Positions 1,376-11,725 of a stretch of DNA of 12,900 nt are shown here, piece after piece. The stretch is taken from the UHGV virus genome UHGV-0200016; one strand, written 5' to 3'. The position numbers were made by a program, and so were the translations under genes. The DNA comes from a virus. A model generated the notes under the pieces. That model had not been told where the DNA came from. It did no database searches and saw only the letters and a program-made list of their open reading frames with translations. How positions within the stretch are numbered: position 1 is the first letter of the stretch; each line of letters begins with the position of its first letter.

Positions 1376-2389
1376 TTACTCTACTGTGGACACTGTGTGG
1401 ACACTCTCGACCTCAGTACCACCTCTTAGCGGATTAAGAGAAATGGCGTCCTGAAGGTACTCTGGCGCAAAATGAGCGTAAACCATAGTTTGCTCAATCC
1501 GCGTGTGACCTAGTATCCGTTGTAGCGTGATAATACTTCCTCCATTAATCATGAAATGAGTGGCAAAGCTGTGCCTTAGTGCATGTGTAGCTTGCCCCAT
1601 TGGCAAATCCGGTTTTATTGCTTTCATTGTTCGTCTGAAGCGAGGGTAATCAGCATCAGGGAATAAAAAACCTCGTTTGTTATCCGCGATCATTTTGGCA
1701 ACAGCCTCTGAGATCGGGACGGTGCGTGGTTTGTTTGTTTTCGTTTTAACAAACGTGACGCGGTTATGGATGATATTTTCTGCTTTCAAACGAGCTGCTT
1801 CTCCCCAACGTGCTCCAGTACTCAGGCAAAGAATCGCAATCTTTTTGTTGTCGCCGTCAAGAGCAGCAAGCAGTAAGGCAATTTCTTCCTGCGTGAGATA
1901 GCCTGTGTCTGGTTTTTCCTCCTTAAGCCTTTTTGTCCCTCTGATAGGGTGCTCACCAAAGAATAACTCCGCTTCAATCAGGGCTGTAAACATGCCGCTA
2001 ATACATGTTAAATCACGATTGATACTCGAAGGTTTAATACCCTGACTTCTTCGGGTGGCGCAGTACTGGCTGATAAGCGATTTCGTAATTTGAAATGCGC
2101 ATGGGTCATTCGTTATTTTTGTGAAGATTTCAATTTTCCCAAGATTAGATTTCCCATGCTCTTCGTGTTTACCCTTTAAATCCCACCAGATCTGTGTCAG
2201 CTCCGACAGACGTCGCTTGTCTGTTGGTTTTGATAGCCATTCTTTATTGTGGTGGTTGTACAACGTGTATTTCTCGAAAGCGACAGCTTCGCTTTTCTTA
2301 TCAAACTTCCTACGGATGCGTTTTCCATTACGTCCAGTAGGGCGGATGTCCACTTCATATCGACCATCATCGAGTTTTTTGATTGCCAT
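1376..2389 (-). CDS. int: P2-type tyrosine integrase, 337 aa
   Basis: ORF track 337 aa: MAIKKLDDGRYEVDIRPTGRNGKRIRRKFDKK ... HALRHSFATHFMINGGSIITLQRILGHTRIEQTMVYAHF. It carries the tyrosine-recombinase R..HxxR..Y box and is close to residue-for-residue my recollection of P2 Int. Confidence 0.95.
   Translation of the reverse strand: MAIKKLDDGRYEVDIRPTGRNGKRIRRKFDKKSEAVAFEKYTLYNHHNKEWLSKPTDKRRLSELTQIWWDLKGKHEEHGKSNLGKIEIFTKITNDPCAFQITKSLISQYCATRRSQGIKPSSINRDLTCISGMFTALIEAELFFGEHPIRGTKRLKEEKPDTGYLTQEEIALLLAALDGDNKKIAILCLSTGARWGEAARLKAENIIHNRVTFVKTKTNKPRTVPISEAVAKMIADNKRGFLFPDADYPRFRRTMKAIKPDLPMGQATHALRHSFATHFMINGGSIITLQRILGHTRIEQTMVYAHFAPEYLQDAISLNPLRGGTEVESVHTVSTVE
1385..1404. promoter_or_regulatory. 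Tandem TGTGGACAC direct repeats; probable Int arm-type binding sites (P arm), inside the 3' end of int
   Basis: tgtggacac at 1385-1393 and 1396-1404, 11 bp apart. A matching pair with the same spacing lies on the other arm at 11496-11514. P2 Int arm sites are, from memory, direct repeats of roughly this consensus. Confidence 0.5.
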
Positions 2390-2504: not shown

Positions 2505-2804
2505 TTAACCAGTCTTTTGACCGGAGTGGGGCGACGTTGTTTCGTTTTGCCCAAAGTGTGCGAGAGCGGGCGCAATTTGCCCGGACTCAGGAGCGATCTG
2601 ATTGGTCATGAACCATAAAGTGTATTTGGTGAATTGTGGGGTCTGCAGGATGTTCATCATGACATCTGTTGGAGGTGTTGAACGACCACTTTCATAGTAA
2701 CTCAGCGTGCCATACGGAACCCCTGTTAAATCAGCAAGTTGTTGTCTGCTCAAATACTCTGATTTTCGCATTAAGACTATCTTCTCGCTTATCGTGTTTG
2801 ACAT
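2505..2804 (-). CDS. C: P2 immunity repressor C, 99 aa
   Basis: ORF track 99 aa: MSNTISEKIVLMRKSEYLSRQQLADLTGVPYGTLSYYESGRSTPPTDVMMNILQ... It has an HTH, sits between int and cox and is divergent from cox, as in P2. Confidence 0.9.
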   Translation of the reverse strand: MSNTISEKIVLMRKSEYLSRQQLADLTGVPYGTLSYYESGRSTPPTDVMMNILQTPQFTKYTLWFMTNQIAPESGQIAPALAHFGQNETTSPHSGQKTG

Positions 2805-2918: not shown

Positions 2919-3527
2919 ATGAGCAAGCAAGTAACACTCATGACTGATGCGATTCCTTATCAGGAGTTCGCAAAACTAATAGGAAAATCGACAGGAGCGG
3001 TTCTCGGCGCGCGTCATATTCATATCACCAGAACGACGGACTGGCGCATTGTTCCGAAAGTTCCGGTCGTGGAGCCTTTAACTTTAAAAAGCGGCATCGC
3101 CGCGCCTCGGAGTCCTGTCAATAACTGTGGAAAGCTCACCGGTGGTGATACTTCGTTACCGGCTCACACACCTTCTGAGCACGCCGCAGCAGTGCTTAAT
3201 CTGGTTGATGACGGTGTTATTGAATGGAATGAACCGGAGGTCGTGAGGGCGCTCAGGGGGGCATTAAAACACGACCTGAGAACACCAAACCGTCAGCAAA
3301 GAAACGGAAGCCCGTTAAAACCACATGAAATTGCACCATCGGCCAGACTGACCCGGTCGGAAAGAATGCAAATTACCCGTATCCGCGTTGACCTTGCTCA
3401 GAACGGTATCAGGCCGCAGCGATGGGAGCTTGAGGCGCTGGCGCGTGGCGCGACCGTAAATTATTACGGGAAATCTTTCAATTATCAGGTCGCTGATGAG
3501 TGGCCTGGATTTTTGTTACCCATTTGA
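2919..3527 (+). CDS. cox N-terminus (about 28 codons) fused in frame to an unrelated 174-codon reading frame, possibly the 3' part of an early/replication gene; probable deletion product
   Basis: ORF track 202 aa. The first 28 residues, MSKQVTLMTDAIPYQEFAKLIGKSTGAV, match P2 Cox (a 91-aa protein). From about nt 3003 the sequence departs completely (LGARHIHITRTTDW...) and continues to 3527. SD agagga lies upstream of the ATG. Confidence 0.6.
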   Translation: MSKQVTLMTDAIPYQEFAKLIGKSTGAVLGARHIHITRTTDWRIVPKVPVVEPLTLKSGIAAPRSPVNNCGKLTGGDTSLPAHTPSEHAAAVLNLVDDGVIEWNEPEVVRALRGALKHDLRTPNRQQRNGSPLKPHEIAPSARLTRSERMQITRIRVDLAQNGIRPQRWELEALARGATVNYYGKSFNYQVADEWPGFLLPI

Positions 3528-3786
3528 GTAAAAATGCAGCGTGATTTTATATGCCTTTGAATGGATTATGCGAAGCGCCTCTAAGGCAGATGAGGAGCAA
3601 TAGCATGCTGAAGTAGAAGGCTAAATTGTATTGAATCGCTAGCATGTAATTTAAAGCAGCTATTTGATTCGAGTCATAAAAGAGCATCTATTTCGGCTAA
3701 TAAAACCATTGCGAGTGACCTTTTGTCGAAGCATAATTCATCTCGAGCGAAGTCTTGCTAGTCTTTCATCGGAATGATGACAGGCG

Positions 3787-3817
3787 CAAAAAAACCACCC
3801 TGGCAGGTGGTTTTTTT
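3787..3817. terminator. Bidirectional rho-independent terminator
   Basis: aaaaaaaccaccctggcaggtggttttttt: a GC-rich hairpin (ccaccctg/caggtgg) flanked by an A-run on the 5' side and a T-run on the 3' side, so it is terminator-like on both strands. Confidence 0.6.
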
Positions 3818-3829
3818 GTTTGAAGCATA

Positions 3830-3943
3830 CTAAAGAATAATACTTACATGGATATTACTGACGTTTACTGACAAACCACTTGGACTACCATATGGATAGC
3901 CAAAGAGGGCCAGAACGAGAATGCAGTAATAGCACTTCTTCAT
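3830..3943 (-). CDS. Hypothetical small hydrophobic protein, 37 aa (below ORF-track cutoff)
   Basis: Minus-strand ATG at 3943 preceded by a strong SD (caggaggagat-ATG). Translation is MKKCYYCILVLALFGYPYGSPSGLSVNVSNIHVSIIL, with stop at 3832-3830 immediately followed by the terminator at 3787-3817. Coding status is unproven. Confidence 0.3.
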   Translation of the reverse strand: MKKCYYCILVLALFGYPYGSPSGLSVNVSNIHVSIIL

Positions 3944-4518
3944 ATCTCCTCCTGTAAGCAGAGGGCAATTTCCGCCGATATATGCGCTTCTAAGGCGGAG
4001 TTACTATTTAGCGAAGTCTTGCCCTGAAATAATGCTCTGTTTAAACGCAAAGTGATCTGGCATATCACCGAACAGAGAGCCTGAACAACACAACATATAG
4101 TATGTCGTTGTTTCTGGTTGCATTTTATGTTGTGTAATCCTGGTTTTGCATCAAGGATGTTTGAGCTTTTTTTGATATAGCTCAAAGTAAAAAGCAGAGA
4201 CTACGGATGATAAGGTATTGAAAGCAATGTAAATTTTTTAAAGTTATTGGCGGCTAAAAAATGCACGGTTTCAATATGGTGGACTTAAATAAGCAATTAA
4301 AAAAGTCATAAATATCACTAAAATCATGGTGTTACGTTTTTTTTGTGGGAGCTGCGGTGACGCTTAAGTTGATTTGTCATTAAATAAGCCGTGCATGCAA
4401 CAAGTGAATGTTTTTGCATGCGTCGGGGATGCCCGTTCCGGCTGCTTGCGGTCAGAGCTGGTGCGGATCCATAGTATCTATGCAACTGCATTAAAACCGC
4501 CACATGAAGCGGGCGGGC

Positions 4519-4537
4519 GAGGCGGGGAAAGCACTGC
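4519..4537. other. P2-type cos site (19-nt cohesive-end sequence)
   Basis: ggcgaggcggggaaagcac matches the P2/186 cohesive-end sequence as I recall it. It sits in a GC-rich island of about 165 bp (roughly 4380-4545) between AT-rich segments. Confidence 0.6.
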
Positions 4538-4694
4538 GCGCAAAATGTTCTTGAAATATTTGTGACATAAGCTAAGACACAAAATGATTGAAGGGCAGAG
4601 CAAATCCTACAGTCCTATGCTATTGTCTCATGTAATGCAGATAAGTTGAAAATTATCTTAAAATATAAGAGTAAAGACATTAAAAGGATTGGTT

Positions 4695-6956
4695 ATGAAT
4701 AATAACTCTAAGTTATTAAGCTCTATCTCGGTTGAATCTGATTTCGAGAACCTTATAAAACTATATGCAAATGAGTTATTTGGTGGTGAAACATATCTGA
4801 TCGGTGGTCCTTGGGATAATGGAAAGGATTTGGTAATAAAAAAGGGGAATAGAGAGTTAAAGCAAGCTGTACAAATATCTATTCAAGAGAAAAATATTGA
4901 AAGTAAGATTGCTCAAGATATTAAAAAAGTGGCGAAATTGGTTGATGATCATTATTACCCGCCTGTATTATATTTTTTTTGGAGTCATTCAATATCTGAG
5001 CATTTATTGGATAAGATAAGAACAAATGCTCTTAAGGAAGATTTGATTAGATTGGAGTTTTATGATGCCAAACGGATCTCTCAAGATATTACAGATAAAT
5101 ACCCAGGGTTATTGAATTACTTAATAAAAGATATACATAAGATAAGTTCTAATACTGAAGATGCAATTAACTTGCAACAAAGAGCATTTTATGAATATTT
5201 ATTGTTAAGCAAAGATAGTGCTAATTTAAAAAATGAAATAATAAAAGCTAGTATTATGTCTAATTTATATGATGGCGGGAAGTCTGCTGATGATATTCTA
5301 GAGAATCTAAAAGGTGTTAGTCTTACAAAACGTAGTTTACAGGGTAGACTGCAAAACCTAATTCATCAAAATAAAATTAGATTGAATGATGGTATATATA
5401 GCCTGTCACCAGAGGAAATTAAAAAGCTTGAGAATATAAATCTCCGTGAAATTGTCAGAAAAGAAGAGTTGTTATCAGTAATAAATAATGAGTTGCCCAG
5501 AAATACAAGTAAGAATCTGGCTGTTCAAGTTGTTGATTTAATAATAAAGGCTTATGAAGAATCAATAAATGTCCAATTAACAGAAAGTAAATTTGAGCCT
5601 CCAAAATTACAGATATTCAAAACTATAGTACATAATTTAAAGGTGTTGATACGGCAGGAATATGATTTGGATGATGAGTCTTCGGATGCTTTAGCAAAAA
5701 AGCTAATGGAGTTGGCTGGTCAAAATGACTATTTATCCGAGCATTGCTCTGCTAAATTATGTGTGAATCTTTTAAGTGATCGGAAATTAGAGAAATATAT
5801 TGAAAATAAAAATTTTTATATCTACTTTGATGCGCCTGTTCTTATTCCATATTTGATAACTCTTATGTTTGGAGATTTTGAGCTTTTTGATAAGTCGATT
5901 AAAAATATAAATTTACTGAGAGAGTGCATAAATCCCCTCAAAAATAAACATCTGAGAGTTTCTAATGAACATTTTGAAGAAACTGCAAGGCACTACTCTG
6001 AAGCTGAAAAATTAAGTCAGTTTGTAACTGAAGATTTAATTAGTCAACTTGGTGAGTCGAAAAATGTATACTTTAATGTTTATATGCGGTGGAAAAACAA
6101 ACAGCCTAAACGTACAGATTTTTACGATTTTACTTATGCTTTTCTAGGGTTGGATAAAGATGATATTTATGCGGGGTATAAGCATGACACATTTGCGCAA
6201 TGCATTCATAATTTACTAGCGTCAGCAAATATTGTTGTAATTGATAATAAAGACTCGGTGTCACAAGACTTTGTATTTAAAATAAAGCAAAAACTTAAAA
6301 GGGATTTGAATTCTTCACGTCCCGTTCGAGCCATAGAAAATGATGTTATATGTGCTGCAACTTTGAGTGATGAAACCCTACATCTTGATTCCAATGGTTA
6401 CTTCAGTACTCCCATGCTAATAACGCTTGATAGATCTCAATATCTATTGAGAAGCATAGTAAGAAATGAAAGGAGACATGCTGAATGGTTGGTTTATACC
6501 CCTCAAAGAGCAATTGAACGTCTTTCCTTGGTGGGTTTAAAAATATCATCGGAATCGTTAAAGGATGGTGTTTTAGCAACCATATCAGAAGAATATTTCT
6601 TTAAAGAAAGTTCCAGTAGTTTGATTGATACTTTGGCTATTATCATTGGAGATAATCAAGCAAGGCAAGGAGATGTTATTAGGCTTGCATCGCTTTTAAA
6701 AAGAAAGGTCAATGAGGAATCTATTGAGAATTCAGAAATTGATATTGAACACTATAATAACATTAGTTATGTGCTTCTTTTCATTCATCGTGAATTTAAA
6801 TCTGAATTTTCAAATATAATAAAAATTTTTGCTGAGGATAGTAGGCGAGATAAACTGGTTGAAGTTTTGTTATCCACTATTCAAGGAGTTTTTGATGAGA
6901 GTAAAAAGGAAATCTTGCGCTCAAATATAGGACGGTTGTTGGCTGAAATGGGATGA
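4695..6956 (+). CDS. Hypothetical protein of about 753 aa with an N-terminal restriction-endonuclease-like (Mrr-type) motif; candidate anti-phage defence protein
   Basis: ORF track 4689..6956 (755 aa from a TTG). I prefer the ATG at 4695, which has SD aagga 6 nt upstream. The gene is strongly AT-rich and Lys/Asn/Ile-rich, unlike the flanking P2 genes. Residues about 25-100 (FENLIKLYANELFGGETYLIGGPWDNGKDLVIKKGNRELKQAVQIS...PVLYFFWSHSIS) resemble the Mrr catalytic-core pattern. A hairpin terminator follows at 6973-7005. Confidence 0.85.
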   Translation: MNNNSKLLSSISVESDFENLIKLYANELFGGETYLIGGPWDNGKDLVIKKGNRELKQAVQISIQEKNIESKIAQDIKKVAKLVDDHYYPPVLYFFWSHSISEHLLDKIRTNALKEDLIRLEFYDAKRISQDITDKYPGLLNYLIKDIHKISSNTEDAINLQQRAFYEYLLLSKDSANLKNEIIKASIMSNLYDGGKSADDILENLKGVSLTKRSLQGRLQNLIHQNKIRLNDGIYSLSPEEIKKLENINLREIVRKEELLSVINNELPRNTSKNLAVQVVDLIIKAYEESINVQLTESKFEPPKLQIFKTIVHNLKVLIRQEYDLDDESSDALAKKLMELAGQNDYLSEHCSAKLCVNLLSDRKLEKYIENKNFYIYFDAPVLIPYLITLMFGDFELFDKSIKNINLLRECINPLKNKHLRVSNEHFEETARHYSEAEKLSQFVTEDLISQLGESKNVYFNVYMRWKNKQPKRTDFYDFTYAFLGLDKDDIYAGYKHDTFAQCIHNLLASANIVVIDNKDSVSQDFVFKIKQKLKRDLNSSRPVRAIENDVICAATLSDETLHLDSNGYFSTPMLITLDRSQYLLRSIVRNERRHAEWLVYTPQRAIERLSLVGLKISSESLKDGVLATISEEYFFKESSSSLIDTLAIIIGDNQARQGDVIRLASLLKRKVNEESIENSEIDIEHYNNISYVLLFIHREFKSEFSNIIKIFAEDSRRDKLVEVLLSTIQGVFDESKKEILRSNIGRLLAEMG

Positions 6957-7047: not shown

Positions 7048-8082
7048 TTAGGTATCGCAAGTATCTAGTGAGTAGTTTTTAAAGCGGATGACCTCCTGAC
7101 CGAGCCAGCCGTTTATCTCGCGGATCCTGTCCTGTAACGGGATAAGCTCATTGCGGACAAAGACCTTTGCCACTTTCTCAATATCGCCCAGTGACCCGAC
7201 GTTCTCCGGCTTGCCGCCCATCAACTGAAAGGGGATGCGGTGCGCGTCCAGTAGGTCAGCGGCGCTGGCTTTTTTGATATTAAAAAAATCGTCCTTCGTT
7301 GCGACTTCACTGAGCGGGATAATTTTAATGCCGTCGGCTTTCCCCTGTGGGGCATAGAGAAACAGATTTTTAAAGTTGTTGCGGCCTTTCGACTTCACCA
7401 TGTTTTCGCGGAGCATTTCGATATCGTTGCGATCCTGCACGGCATCAGTGACGTACATGATGTATCCGGCATGTGCGCCGTTTTCGTAATACTTGCGGCG
7501 GAACAGCGTGGCCGACTCATTCAGCCAGGCAGAGTTAAGGGCGCTGAGATATTCCGGCAGGCCGTACAACTCCTGATTAATATCCGGCTCCAGCAGGTGA
7601 AACACGGAGCCGGGCGCGAAGGCTGTCGGTTCGTTGAAGGACGGCACCCACCAGTAAACATCCTCTTCCACCCCACGGCGGGTATATTTTGCCGGTGAGG
7701 TTTCCAGTCTGATGACCTTACCGGTGGTGCTGTAACGCTTTTCCAGAAACGCATTACCAAACACCAGAAAATCCAGCACAAAGCGGCTGAAATCCTGTTG
7801 TGAAAGCCACGGATGCGGGATAAATGTCGAGGCCAGAATATTACGTTTGACGTAAATCGGTGAGCTGTGATGTACGGCAGCACGCAGGCTTTTTGCCAGA
7901 CCGGTAAAGCTGACCGGTGGCTCATACCATCTGCCGTTACTGATGCACTCGACGTAATCCAGAATGTCACGGCGGTCGAGTACCGGCACCGGCTCACCAA
8001 AGGTGAATGCCTCCATTTTCGGGGCGCTGGCGGTCATTGTTTTTGCCGCAGGTTGCGGTGTTTTCCCTTTTTTCTTGCTCAT
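7048..8082 (-). CDS. Q: P2 portal (capsid portal) protein Q, 344 aa
   Basis: ORF track 344 aa: MSKKKGKTPQPAAKTMTASAPKMEAFTFGEPVPVLDRRDILDYVECISNGRWYEPP... It matches my recollection of P2 gpQ in sequence and length, and its start overlaps the stop of the upstream P fragment (TGATG). Confidence 0.9.
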   Translation of the reverse strand: MSKKKGKTPQPAAKTMTASAPKMEAFTFGEPVPVLDRRDILDYVECISNGRWYEPPVSFTGLAKSLRAAVHHSSPIYVKRNILASTFIPHPWLSQQDFSRFVLDFLVFGNAFLEKRYSTTGKVIRLETSPAKYTRRGVEEDVYWWVPSFNEPTAFAPGSVFHLLEPDINQELYGLPEYLSALNSAWLNESATLFRRKYYENGAHAGYIMYVTDAVQDRNDIEMLRENMVKSKGRNNFKNLFLYAPQGKADGIKIIPLSEVATKDDFFNIKKASAADLLDAHRIPFQLMGGKPENVGSLGDIEKVAKVFVRNELIPLQDRIREINGWLGQEVIRFKNYSLDTCDT

Positions 8083-8360
8083 CAGTAAAACTCCAGAATG
8101 GTGGATGTCAGCGGGGTGCTGATACCGGCGGTGAGTGGCTCATTTAACAGGGCGTGCATGGTCGCCCAGGCGAGGTCGGCGTGGCTGGCTTCCTCGCTGC
8201 GGCTGGCCTCATAGGTGGCGCTGCGTCCGCTGCTGGTCATGGTCTTGCGGATAGCCATAAACGAGCTGGTGATGTCGGTGGCGCTGACGTCGTATTCCAG
8301 ACAGCCACGGCGGATAACGTCTTTTGCCTTGAGCACCATTGCGGTTTTCATTTCCGGCGT
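8082..8360 (-). pseudogene. P: 3' fragment of terminase ATPase gene P (about 90 C-terminal codons); the 5' part is deleted
   Basis: A minus-strand open frame ends at 8082 (...LTAGISTPLTSTILEFY) with its stop overlapping the Q start, as for P2 P-Q. P is about 590 aa in P2, so only the 3' end is present. Assignment rests on synteny and coupling, not on confirmed homology. The upper boundary is approximate. Confidence 0.5.
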
Positions 8361-11554: not shown

Positions 11555-11581
11555 AAAAAATAAGCCCGTGTAAGGGAGATT
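11555..11581. other. attR core (P2 att core, 27 bp)
   Basis: Exact copy of AAAAAATAAGCCCGTGTAAGGGAGATT, followed by AT-rich non-phage DNA leading into the convergent host gene. Confidence 0.75.
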
Positions 11582-11725
11582 ACACAGGCTAAGGAGGTGG
11601 TTCCTGGTACAGCTAGCATTTTATGGGTTATGTTTTTCAGCGAAACGGATGATAACCTTAATAAATGCAGCTGTATGTGATCGGTTTCTAAGAATTTTCC
11701 ATCCGGGAAAAATAATCGAAATTAA

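What the first reader, a model, noticed from the sequence alone, without database searches (positions are those of the whole stretch)
3787..3960. Small hydrophobic 37-aa ORF with a strong Shine-Dalgarno, ending at a bidirectional terminator (possible small membrane protein or type-I-toxin-like gene)
Seen in sequence: on the minus strand caggaggagat-ATG (ATG at 3943) opens a frame encoding MKKCYYCILVLALFGYPYGSPSGLSVNVSNIHVSIIL, stopping at 3832-3830 directly before the hairpin at 3787-3817. A near-perfect SD ahead of a short, hydrophobic, cysteine/tyrosine-rich peptide is the architecture of small membrane proteins and type I toxins, and prophage variable regions often carry them. It is missed by length-thresholded ORF calling. 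The larger overlapping 81-codon frame upstream has a TTG start and no SD, and looks non-coding. Function is speculative.
Basis: inference. Interest (0 to 1): 0.45.

Follow-up and report, generated by a model that had tools for sequence, protein, structure and literature searches.

The report
Unannotated toxin-like gene with antisense RNA
The 37-codon ORF is a real, conserved small membrane-protein gene. It forms a roughly 585-bp cassette with a convergent antisense small RNA and a promoter copied from the host's anaerobic ribonucleotide-reductase gene, and this undescribed, type-I-toxin-antitoxin-like module rides on P2 prophages, Klebsiella plasmids and other mobile elements.

Summary
ATG 3943, stop 3832-3830, AGGAGG 3953-3948 and a perfect 13-bp hairpin at 3787-3818 are all present.

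The ORF alone proves nothing, but comparison does.
- I found 82 copies (48 distinct) on P2-like prophages, an inovirus-like prophage, conjugative elements and about 400 plasmids.
- All 25 distinct ORF sequences are intact at 37-39 codons. Indels keep the frame, and dN/dS is about 0.1-0.5.

A conserved sigma-70 promoter (3709-3737, + strand) would drive an ~80-nt RNA ending at the same terminator. Its 5' end (3746-3758) is complementary to the mRNA leader (4022-4010), always about 80 nt before the ATG. The 14-bp core of this helix is never broken. Four of the 17 tested pairs show compensatory double changes, and the intermediates are G.U wobbles only.

The mRNA promoter (about 4245-4116) is homologous to the E. 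coli nrdDG promoter, which FNR and NrdR regulate.

The layout matches the Gram-positive par (fst/RNA II) system. The peptide hits no Pfam or NCBIfam model, including TimP, and the RNAs hit no Rfam family.

Toxicity, expression and regulation are untested.

Verdict: a new type-I-TA-like family.

The parts
4116..4245 (-). Promoter of the smORF mRNA, homologous to the E. coli nrdDG promoter. It contains TTTACAT at 4233-4227, the FNR-2-like site TTGAGCTATATCAA at 4185-4172, the FNR-1-like site TTGATGCAAAACCA at 4154-4141, and the -10 hexamer TAAAAT at 4127-4122. An inverted repeat ACACAACATA/TATGTTGTGT (4135-4126 / 4097-4088) resembles NrdR half-boxes.
   Evidence: Window 4145-4241 matches the treC-nrdD intergenic region of all 5426 E. 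coli genomes at about 84% identity. All family promoters align with K-12 PnrdD over about 150 nt. The K-12 probe that binds NrdR covers the same segment (PMC12176259). FNR-consensus matches have 1 and 2 mismatches. The inverted repeat was found.
3944..4115 (-). Structured 5' UTR of about 172 nt. The TSS near 4115 is inferred from the -10 hexamer and from the nrdD homology.
   Evidence: Helix CUCUGUU (4077-4071) / AACAGAG (4041-4035) encloses the hairpin at 4069-4051. A second hairpin is CCGCC (3997-3993) / GGCGG (3975-3971). 94% of cells are paired, against 39-51% when the partners are slid, and 7 pairs show compensatory changes.
4051..4069 (-). UTR hairpin GGUGAU-AUGCCAG-AUCACU. Its loop UGCCA(G) (4062-4057) repeats the mRNA terminator loop and is complementary to the sRNA terminator loop CUGGCA.
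   Evidence: The stem covaries (GGUGAU/AUCAC, GUGCUU/AAGCAC, GGUACUU/AAGUAC) while GCCA in the loop is invariant. A kissing interaction is inference only.
4010..4023 (-). sRNA-binding box in the mRNA leader, (G)GCAAGACUUCGCU, starting 80 nt upstream of the ATG.
   Evidence: It is an exact 13-nt direct repeat of 3746-3758. It sits at a fixed distance of 80-83 nt from the ATG in all copies with an intact leader. Covariation was tested.
3948..3953 (-). Shine-Dalgarno sequence AGGAGG.
   Evidence: Read directly from the sequence. A GGAG-type SD is kept at the same spacing in all clades.
3830..3943 (-). smORF of 37 codons plus stop. It has a basic N-terminus (MKK), a hydrophobic stretch CYYCILVLALFGY, a Gly/Pro/Ser turn, and a C-terminal stretch of alternating hydrophobic and polar residues, LSVNVSNIHVSIIL.
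   Evidence: There are 25 distinct intact nucleotide versions of 37-39 codons, dN/dS is 0.08-0.48, and M1, C7 and L11 are invariant.
3787..3818 (.). Bidirectional intrinsic terminator shared by the mRNA (minus strand) and the sRNA (plus strand).
   Evidence: A perfect 13-bp inverted repeat with a 6-nt loop. It is invariant in all P2-type copies. It is identical in loci that are otherwise only 60-73% alike, though the searches were seeded on it.
3709..3737 (+). sRNA promoter: TTGCGA (3709-3714), a 17-nt spacer, then CATAAT (3732-3737), preceded by the AT-rich block TAATAAAA.
   Evidence: Found by the consensus scan. TTGCNN-17/18-GCATAAT and the upstream TAATAAA are kept in all clades while the spacer is free to vary. 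The hexamers are invariant among 14 P2-type sequences while the spacer varies.
3745..3824 (+). Predicted convergent sRNA of about 80 nt, the putative antitoxin. It has a 5' single-stranded box AGCGAAGUCUUGC (3746-3758), a hairpin at about 3761-3785, and a terminator hairpin with a U tail.
   Evidence: The fold gives -31.9 kcal/mol, z = -4.0. The consensus structure has 6 covarying pairs in the internal hairpin and an unpaired 5' box. The ends are inferred, not mapped.
3664..3677 (+). Conserved motif TTGATTCGAGTCAT about 73 nt upstream of the sRNA start. It marks the outer limit of the cassette and may be a regulator-binding site.
   Evidence: It is kept as TTGMY-N4-RTCAT in all clades, while sequence beyond it diverges. 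It matches the FNR consensus with 2 mismatches, which is not significant on its own.

Best explanation
Window 3660-4245 is a self-contained mobile cassette of the type I toxin-antitoxin kind.

On the minus strand, a promoter homologous to the host nrdDG promoter drives an mRNA of about 330 nt. It has a structured 172-nt leader, a strong SD, and a 37-aa protein with a basic N-terminus and a hydrophobic anchor. The protein is probably inserted in the inner membrane and probably harmful when over-produced.

On the plus strand, a constitutive-looking sigma-70 promoter drives an RNA of about 80 nt that ends at the same bidirectional terminator. Its single-stranded 5' end pairs with a 14-nt box in the mRNA leader, 80 nt upstream of the start codon. 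The two terminator hairpins are also mutually complementary. Pairing is proposed to keep the protein from being made, either by blocking a ribosome standby or entry site, by remodelling a long-range leader helix that overlaps the box, or by triggering cleavage.

The nrdD-like promoter suggests that transcription of the protein gene rises in anaerobiosis (FNR). In most family members it may also rise when the dATP/ATP signal sensed by NrdR falls.

Shown by comparison: the coding status, the sRNA promoter, the RNA-RNA complementarity with covariation, the leader structure, the promoter homology and the mobility.

Inferred: expression, transcript ends, toxicity, the mode of repression, and FNR/NrdR control.
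For: Coding status. All 25 distinct ORF sequences are intact at 37-39 codons and indels keep the frame. Mean pS is 0.61 against pN 0.29, and dN/dS is 0.08-0.48. Within the P2 clade, 5 of the 8 variable sites in the ORF and its stop codon are silent. Prokka called the same CDS in Salmonella phage MET_P1_103_31. An exhaustive HMMER search returns only family members.

sRNA. The -35 and -10 hexamers and the upstream AT block are conserved while the spacer is free. The RNA has a stable fold (z = -4.0) with 6 covarying pairs.

Pairing. There is an exact 13-nt direct repeat. In the copies with an intact leader, the box starts 80-83 nt before the ATG and the sRNA-gene copy ends 5-8 nt from the -10 hexamer. 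95% of cells are paired, against 29-43% when the partners are slid. The 14-bp core is never broken. Four pairs show double changes (GCAAGACUUCGCU in one clade, GUAAGGCUUUGCU in the other, in both copies), and intermediates are G.U only. Cognate duplexes are -25.6 to -32.8 kcal/mol; one of the two cross-clade pairs is only -9.8.

Leader structure. 94% of cells are paired and 7 pairs are compensatory.

Promoter. The window segment is about 84% identical to the nrdD promoter of every E. coli genome, and the whole family aligns with it. The homologous K-12 segment binds NrdR (PMC12176259). FNR control of nrdDG is stated in PMC4009431.

Mobility, typical of addiction or defence modules. The cassette is found in P2 prophages (152 of 5426 E. 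coli genomes), next to Zot and secretin genes, next to traI and an integrase gene, on 426 plasmids using the Leclercia copy as query, and on 387 mostly Klebsiella plasmids carrying the full-length Klebsiella variant.

Architecture. It matches par of pAD1 (PMC7472228).
Against: - No experimental datum is available here: there is no transcript mapping, no translation evidence and no toxicity test.
- The hydrophobic stretch is short, at 13-15 residues. It looks more like a signal or anchor sequence than a classical pore-forming helix, so the protein might be harmless.
- The peptide hits no known toxin family.
- The pairing site is 80 nt from the start codon, so direct occlusion of the SD is excluded. 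A simple thermodynamic test showed no consistent change in SD accessibility when the box is blocked.
- Three of the four compensatory changes separate just two clades, so they may represent few independent events.
- Several searches were seeded on the terminator and the -10 hexamer, so conservation of those two elements is partly ascertainment.
- In the window's P2 clade, the canonical NrdR box 1 is not conserved. The FNR-like sites are not significant on their own.
Confidence: 0.7

Rival explanations
1. The cassette encodes a non-toxic small membrane protein. It would be a moron that modulates a host membrane function under anaerobiosis, with its level fine-tuned by the antisense sRNA. It would then be an sRNA-regulated small protein, not a toxin-antitoxin pair.
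For: The hydrophobic stretch is short and resembles a signal anchor. There is no similarity to known toxins. The promoter points to a physiological condition rather than constitutive toxin mRNA production.
Against: The cassette spreads as an autonomous unit across unrelated mobile elements. It combines a long structured leader, convergent promoters, a shared terminator and a dedicated, tightly covarying sRNA. That package is known from addiction and toxin modules. TimP, the closest protein type, is toxic despite having a signal-like N-terminus (PMC7667032).
Confidence: 0.2
2. The two copies of the 13-nt repeat are DNA sites for a protein such as a regulator or recombinase, not partners in RNA-RNA pairing. 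In that case the plus-strand 'sRNA' has no antisense role.
For: They are direct repeats at the DNA level. Concerted change of both copies would also suit a shared binding protein.
Against: Every difference between the two copies is a transition in the direction that gives G.U, and never A.C, in roughly six independent cases. One copy always sits exactly at the predicted 5' end of a promoter-terminator unit. The other always sits at a fixed position in a transcribed leader. No protein gene travels with the cassette.
Confidence: 0.06
3. The minus-strand transcript is a non-coding RNA, and the ORF is conserved only because of RNA-level constraints.
For: The leader is as conserved as the ORF among the near-identical P2 copies.
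Against: Synonymous sites are near saturation between clades while the peptide pattern, length and frame are kept. The SD and the ATG are conserved. Other frames are closed.
Confidence: 0.03
4. It is a chance ORF next to the terminator of phage gene A.
For: Short ORFs are common here. The terminator also serves the gpA remnant.
Against: The same unit occurs, conserved, without gene A on plasmids and other elements.
Confidence: 0.01

Closest known systems
par (fst / RNA II) of Enterococcus faecalis plasmid pAD1 and its Gram-positive relatives
   Same: Convergent promoters and a shared bidirectional intrinsic terminator, giving complementary terminator stem-loops. A DNA direct repeat transcribed in opposite directions gives a second region of complementarity. 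The toxin mRNA has intramolecular leader structure. The system is carried on mobile elements (PMC7472228).
   Different: There is one repeat, not two, and it lies 80 nt upstream of the start codon instead of over the initiation region. The YUNR-like motif (CUGG) is in the sRNA loop, not the toxin RNA loop. The peptide has no Fst/Ldr features: no PXXXG motif, no charged C-terminal tail, and no Pfam hit. The hosts are Enterobacteriaceae. The toxin promoter is nrdD-like.
timP / TimR (RyfA / RyfB) of Salmonella and E. coli
   Same: The protein is of similar size (38-41 aa) with most of its hydrophobic residues in the N-terminal, signal-like part. The N-terminus has a similar pattern, MK.. C.C I(V/L)(L/V). 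The mRNA is about 300 nt with a long structured leader. The sRNA's 5' end pairs within the 5' UTR (PMC7667032).
   Different: There is no match to NCBIfam NF040796; the control scores 86.8 bits. hhalign gives a probability of 6% over only 10 residues. There is no RyfA Rfam hit. timR is divergent and upstream, whereas here the sRNA is convergent and downstream. timPR is a chromosomal core locus, whereas this cassette is on mobile elements.
tisB/IstR-1, zorO/OrzO, dinQ/AgrB, dqlB/agrB (enterobacterial type I systems with trans-acting, partially complementary sRNAs)
   Same: A short stretch of complementarity lies far upstream of the SD in a long leader, and the sRNA pairs through its 5' end (my own knowledge of these systems; dqlB/agrB as described in PMC12365149).
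   Different: In those systems the antitoxin genes are divergent or separate and do not share a terminator. The toxins are single amphipathic or hydrophobic helices unrelated to this peptide. Their promoters are LexA-controlled or constitutive, not nrdD-like.
E. coli nrdDG promoter (class III ribonucleotide reductase)
   Same: The family aligns with it over about 150 nt, including both FNR sites, the -10 hexamer and, in most family members, NrdR box 1.
   Different: Here it drives a 37-aa ORF on mobile DNA. In the window's clade, NrdR box 1 is replaced and the box-2-like sequence is displaced by about 10 bp.

Membership tests
Type I toxin-antitoxin system (general class) | Small (under 60 aa) hydrophobic protein gene | tested here: met
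   A 37-39-aa ORF under purifying selection, with a basic N-terminus and a hydrophobic stretch.
Type I toxin-antitoxin system (general class) | An RNA antitoxin encoded at the locus and complementary to the toxin mRNA | tested here: met
   The promoter and terminator unit is conserved. The 14-bp core of the complementarity covaries, and the terminators overlap. Expression of the RNA itself has not been shown.
Type I toxin-antitoxin system (general class) | The protein is toxic when over-produced, and the RNA prevents its synthesis | not testable with these tools
   This needs inducible expression, reporter fusions and compensatory mutations.
par / Fst-RNA II family | Convergent promoters with a shared bidirectional terminator | tested here: met
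   the feature is described in PMC7472228.
par / Fst-RNA II family | Direct repeats DRa and DRb overlapping the toxin's translation initiation region | tested here: not met
   There is a single repeat, 80 nt upstream of the ATG and not over the SD or start codon.
par / Fst-RNA II family | Fst/Ldr-type toxin (hydrophobic domain with PXXXG, charged C-terminal tail) | tested here: not met
   No Pfam or NCBIfam hit at E<=10 for the family peptides scanned (8 against NCBIfam, 6 against Pfam). The C-terminus is uncharged.
TimP / TimR (RyfA) | Protein matches NCBIfam NF040796 (toxic_TimP) | tested here: not met
   Zero hits for 8 family peptides, while the TimP control scores 86.8 bits. hhalign probability is 6%.
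TimP / TimR (RyfA) | mRNA matches Rfam RF00126 (RyfA) | tested here: not met
   No RyfA match even at E<=10.
TimP / TimR (RyfA) | Antitoxin gene divergent and upstream of the toxin gene | tested here: not met
   Here the sRNA gene is convergent and downstream. The timR layout was seen in K-12.
Hok, Ldr, TisB, ShoB, Ibs, ZorO, DinQ and other curated enterobacterial toxins | Match to the curated protein model | tested here: not met
   No NCBIfam or Pfam family at E<=10.
FNR/NrdR-regulated nrdDG-type promoter | Sequence homology to the characterised nrdDG promoter | tested here: met
   About 84% identity over 97 nt to all E. coli genomes, and a family-wide alignment over about 150 nt.
FNR/NrdR-regulated nrdDG-type promoter | Two FNR sites close to TTGAT-N4-ATCAA at nrdD-like positions | tested here: inconclusive
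   There are sites at 4185-4172 (1 mismatch) and 4154-4141 (2 mismatches) at the positions homologous to nrdD. Such matches are common in the window: 18 found against 8.7 expected.
FNR/NrdR-regulated nrdDG-type promoter | Two 16-bp NrdR boxes 15-16 bp apart | tested here: inconclusive
   Box 1 (TCACTATATRTAG) is kept in Klebsiella, Leclercia, Salmonella, Citrobacter and Enterobacter copies but not in the window's P2 clade. The window has a displaced inverted repeat with NrdR-like half-sites whose starts are 32 bp apart.
FNR/NrdR-regulated nrdDG-type promoter | Anaerobic induction and NrdR repression in vivo | not testable with these tools
   This needs reporter fusions in fnr and nrdR mutants.

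The most novel reading that the evidence does not exclude
Mobile elements have wired a membrane toxin to a copy of the host's nrdDG promoter. Toxin transcription would then report the cell's oxygen status (FNR) and deoxynucleotide status (NrdR), while a constitutive antisense RNA sets the threshold. The cassette would act as a nucleotide-pool or anaerobiosis-triggered addiction or abortive-infection switch. That would explain its place in the P2 defence hotspot next to cos and on Klebsiella conjugative plasmids.
Probability: 0.2. Interest if true: 0.8.

Novelty: new variant of a known kind. Interest (0 to 1): 0.62.

Why it matters
If the prediction holds, this is an undescribed type I toxin-antitoxin family. 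It is unannotated in nearly all records inspected: the Salmonella phage record carries a Prokka 'hypothetical protein' over the ORF, and one plasmid record shows a hypothetical protein under the match. It sits on about 400 sequenced plasmids, mostly conjugative Klebsiella pneumoniae plasmids, and in about 3% of complete E. coli genomes.

It would bring the par-type architecture (convergent promoters, shared terminator, direct repeat) into Gram-negative bacteria. It would also be, as far as I could find, the first toxin gene driven by a ribonucleotide-reductase-type promoter.

That gives directly testable links between oxygen or dNTP status and plasmid or prophage maintenance or phage defence. 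It is also a clean example of what length-thresholded annotation misses.

Tried and rejected
- **Rfam.** At gathering threshold only CyaR was found elsewhere in the window. At E<=10 over 3400-4750 there were only weak, terminator-driven hits such as RNAI, Phe_leader and STnc130, all far below their thresholds.
- **Terminator scan.** The simple scan missed the hairpin. I relied on the repeat finder and folding instead.
- **Protein word search.** It gave three clusters. P0003 (64% identity) looked like a distant homologue but is a deletion fusion next to the P2 C repressor gene, so it was discarded.
- **The 81-codon TTG ORF.** This and other local ORFs are not conserved.
- **Structural switch.** I tested whether sRNA binding would free an anti-SD segment. 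Blocking the box in silico did not change SD accessibility consistently across 16 leaders, so I do not claim it.
- **RNAduplex.** Run on whole RNAs, it was dominated by long, loopy alignments and was uninformative. Core duplex energies were used instead.
- **Homology to TimP.** Only a 10-residue N-terminal resemblance was found.
- **Long-range leader helix.** It appears in many single-sequence folds, but the MAFFT alignment puts the clades in different registers. I did not score it formally.
- **Literature.** Full-text searches for the peptide and box sequences, and for related concepts, found no description. The pOXA-48 'novel type I TA' is DqlB/agrB, a different family. The Boston and Atlung paper on nrdDG and FNR is not held, so the exact FNR site positions rest on my memory of that work and of Roca et al. 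2008.
Full report
**Context**

The window is a defective P2-like prophage of E. coli, 100% identical to strain 1218KP. It lies at the yegR / ogrK-CyaR locus. In order it contains:
- integrase (1376-2389, minus strand);
- C repressor (2505-2804, minus strand);
- a Cox-N-terminus::gpA-C-terminus fusion (2919-3527, plus strand);
- about 1 kb without annotated genes;
- a 755-aa orphan ORF;
- portal gene Q and remnants of late genes.

The P2 cos 19-mer is at 4516-4534. The finding therefore lies between the end of gene A and cos, where P2 itself carries tin and old. That last point is my own knowledge of the P2 map.

**The observation**

A 37-codon ORF is not remarkable in itself, since 21 ORFs of at least 30 codons lie within 3 kb. 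The question was therefore whether it is conserved as a gene.

**First lead: the promoter**

A sensitive search with 3700-4250 hit every one of 5426 E. coli genomes over query positions 446-542, at 82-84% identity. The hit lies in the treC-nrdD intergenic region. The alignment shows the window carries a copy of the nrdDG promoter, oriented toward the smORF. The shared features are:
- the TTTACAT block;
- TTGAGCTAtATCAA, which is FNR-2;
- TTGATGCAAA.., which is FNR-1;
- the TAAAAT -10 hexamer.

The K-12 57-mer that binds NrdR in vitro (PMC12176259) covers the homologous segment. FNR control of nrdDG is stated in PMC4009431. The published site positions, -64.5 and -33.5, I recall from Boston and Atlung 2003 and Roca et al. 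2008, which I could not read here. By homology the transcript would start near 4115, giving a 172-nt leader.

**Second lead: a direct repeat and a convergent promoter**

The repeat finder gave an exact 13-nt direct repeat, 3746-3758 = 4010-4022. The promoter scan gave TTGCGA-17-CATAAT at 3709-3737 on the plus strand. A plus-strand RNA starting about 7 nt after that -10 hexamer would begin with the repeat and run about 80 nt to the shared terminator. It would therefore be complementary, through its 5' end, to the mRNA leader. It folds stably (z = -4.0).

**Relatives**

I collected copies from several sources:
- Near-identical copies (90-100%) occur in P2-like phages and prophages.
- A scan of one genome per species with the terminator 30-mer found diverged copies in Kluyvera (73% identity), Leclercia and an Enterobacter MAG.
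- A blastn search with the Leclercia copy found 426 plasmids. The Klebsiella variant alone is full-length on 387 plasmids, mostly conjugative IncF.
- A metagenome scan and a viral scan, anchored only on the sRNA -10 hexamer and the terminator, brought the total to 82 copies, 48 of them distinct.

Neighbouring genes differ completely between hosts:
- P2 gene A and cos;
- Zot and secretin, indicating an inovirus-like prophage;
- traI, a DsbA-like gene and an integrase gene;
- Rpn, Abi and partition genes on plasmids.

Homology stops at about 4245 on one side and about 3660 on the other. The unit is therefore an autonomous cassette of about 585 bp. Almost none of the records inspected annotates it. 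The exceptions are a Prokka 'hypothetical protein' over the ORF in one Salmonella phage and a hypothetical protein under the match on one plasmid.

**Coding status**

All 25 distinct ORF sequences are intact. Lengths are 37-39 codons, and the indels are whole codons. Between clades, synonymous sites are near saturation (pS up to 0.9) while pN is 0.17-0.53. dN/dS is 0.08-0.48 wherever it can be computed.

The peptide pattern is conserved:
- M, then basic residues;
- an invariant Cys7;
- I/L-L/F-V-L-x-L;
- a G/S/P/Q turn;
- a C-terminal run of alternating hydrophobic and polar residues.

The SD and the ATG are kept. The 81-codon upstream frame is not conserved outside the P2 clade and one metagenome copy.

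An exhaustive phmmer search of 1.84 billion representatives returns only this family. No Pfam or NCBIfam model matches, while the TimP control scores 86.8 bits. A profile-profile comparison with TimP aligns only the first 10 residues, at 6% probability.

**RNA-RNA pairing**

In every copy with an intact leader, the box starts 80-83 nt before the ATG. The sRNA-gene copy ends 5-8 nt from the -10 hexamer.

I concatenated the two segments from 16 distinct cassettes and scored them:
- 95% of cells are paired, against 29-43% when the partners are slid.
- Fourteen contiguous pairs are never broken.
- Four pairs show changes on both sides. Clade A has GCAAGACUUCGCU and clade B has GUAAGGCUUUGCU, in both copies. 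L058 has a separate G-C to A-U change.
- Where the two copies differ, the difference always gives G.U and never A.C.

That last point argues for RNA pairing rather than a shared DNA site.

Cognate duplexes are -25.6 to -32.8 kcal/mol. The window mRNA with the Leclercia sRNA gives only -9.8 kcal/mol. The reverse pair keeps -24.9 kcal/mol through wobbles.

The sRNA promoter (TTGCNN, a 17-18-nt spacer, GCATAAT, plus an upstream TAATAAA block) is conserved while the spacer varies freely. The sRNA's internal hairpin covaries at 6 pairs, and the 5' box stays unpaired in the consensus.

**Leader structure**

A helix, CUCUGUU/AACAGAG, encloses a hairpin whose stem covaries. A second hairpin lies nearer the SD. 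Overall 94% of cells are paired, against 39-51% when slid, and 7 pairs are compensatory.

The enclosed hairpin's loop keeps UGCCA(G). This is the same as the mRNA terminator loop and complementary to the sRNA terminator loop CUGGCA. This could be a kissing contact, but that is inference.

Single-sequence folds often show a long-range helix between the 5' part of the box and a segment about 20 nt before the SD. Examples are GGGCAA/UUGCCC, GGUGGC/GCCGCC, GGUGGU/ACCACC and GGUGAC/GUCACC. sRNA binding would compete with this helix. However, blocking the box in silico did not change SD accessibility consistently. The mode of repression therefore stays open.

**Promoter across the family**

All copies align with K-12 PnrdD over about 150 nt. 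NrdR box 1 (TCACTATATRTAG) is kept in most clades but not in the window's P2 clade. There, an inverted repeat with NrdR-like half-sites lies about 10 bp downstream. The FNR-like sites are not significant by count alone, so the inference rests on homology.

**Comparison with known systems**

The layout is that of par (fst/RNA II) of pAD1: convergent promoters, a shared bidirectional terminator, and a direct repeat read in both directions (PMC7472228). The differences are that there is one repeat, placed far upstream of the start codon, and that the peptide is unrelated.

In protein type and leader length it most resembles timP/TimR (PMC7667032). It fails every membership test for that family. 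I found no description of this cassette in the searchable literature.

**Verdict**

It is best described as a new family of type-I-toxin-antitoxin-like cassettes with par-like architecture and an nrdD-type promoter. My confidence in each step is:
- about 0.9 that the ORF is a protein-coding gene;
- about 0.8 that the convergent sRNA exists and pairs with the leader;
- about 0.55 that the protein is toxic and the pair behaves as a TA system;
- about 0.5 that FNR controls the promoter, and less that NrdR does in this particular copy.

Noticed in passing
window 4689-6956 (+): A 755-aa ORF lies between the P2 cos site and portal gene Q. RefSeq calls it hypothetical, and it has no Pfam or PADLOC hit. 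It is an orphan cargo gene in a position where P2-like phages carry variable, often defensive, genes.
   Followed up: partly
window 4516-4534 and 4364-4541: The P2 cohesive-end 19-mer GGCGAGGCGGGGAAAGCAC is present. The surrounding 178 bp is the piece conserved in about 2100 E. coli genomes and many P2-like phages. In several relatives, about 2.5 kb of other cargo sits between the cassette and cos. There are therefore variable slots on both sides of cos.
   Followed up: partly
window 2919-3527 (+): A 202-aa ORF joins the first 29 residues of Cox (Pfam PF10743) to the C-terminal part of replication endonuclease gpA. A deletion has removed the P2 early genes, so the prophage is defective.
   Followed up: partly
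window 8082-8351 (-) and 8377 onward: A remnant of terminase P abuts baseplate gene J. This second large deletion removes most late genes. The window starts inside an IS3 copy, left of the integrase gene.
   Followed up: no
window 11558-11643 (-): The CyaR (RyeE) sRNA gene scores 100.7 bits. It lies next to ogrK at the prophage's right end.
   Followed up: no
window 3664-3677 (+): The motif TTGATTCGAGTCAT lies about 73 nt upstream of the predicted sRNA start. It is kept as TTGMY-N4-RTCAT in all clades, while flanking sequence diverges. It could be a regulator site for the antitoxin promoter.
   Followed up: partly
window 3575-3590 and 3984-3999: A second, imperfect direct repeat (14 of 16 nt) links the region downstream of gene A with the mRNA leader. 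A gene A read-through transcript would be complementary to the leader there. I did not examine this in other clades.
   Followed up: no
L022 4550-5700 (Enterobacter MAG): A 217-aa ORF with hydrophobic stretches and no Pfam hit is inserted between two copies of the terminator. It separates the smORF from the sRNA gene. Both halves keep the box and the terminator.
   Followed up: partly
P0001 and P0003: Two damaged copies exist. One has lost the stop codon and reads through to 68 aa. The other is truncated by a deletion that fuses the first 16 codons to sequence next to the C repressor gene.
   Followed up: partly
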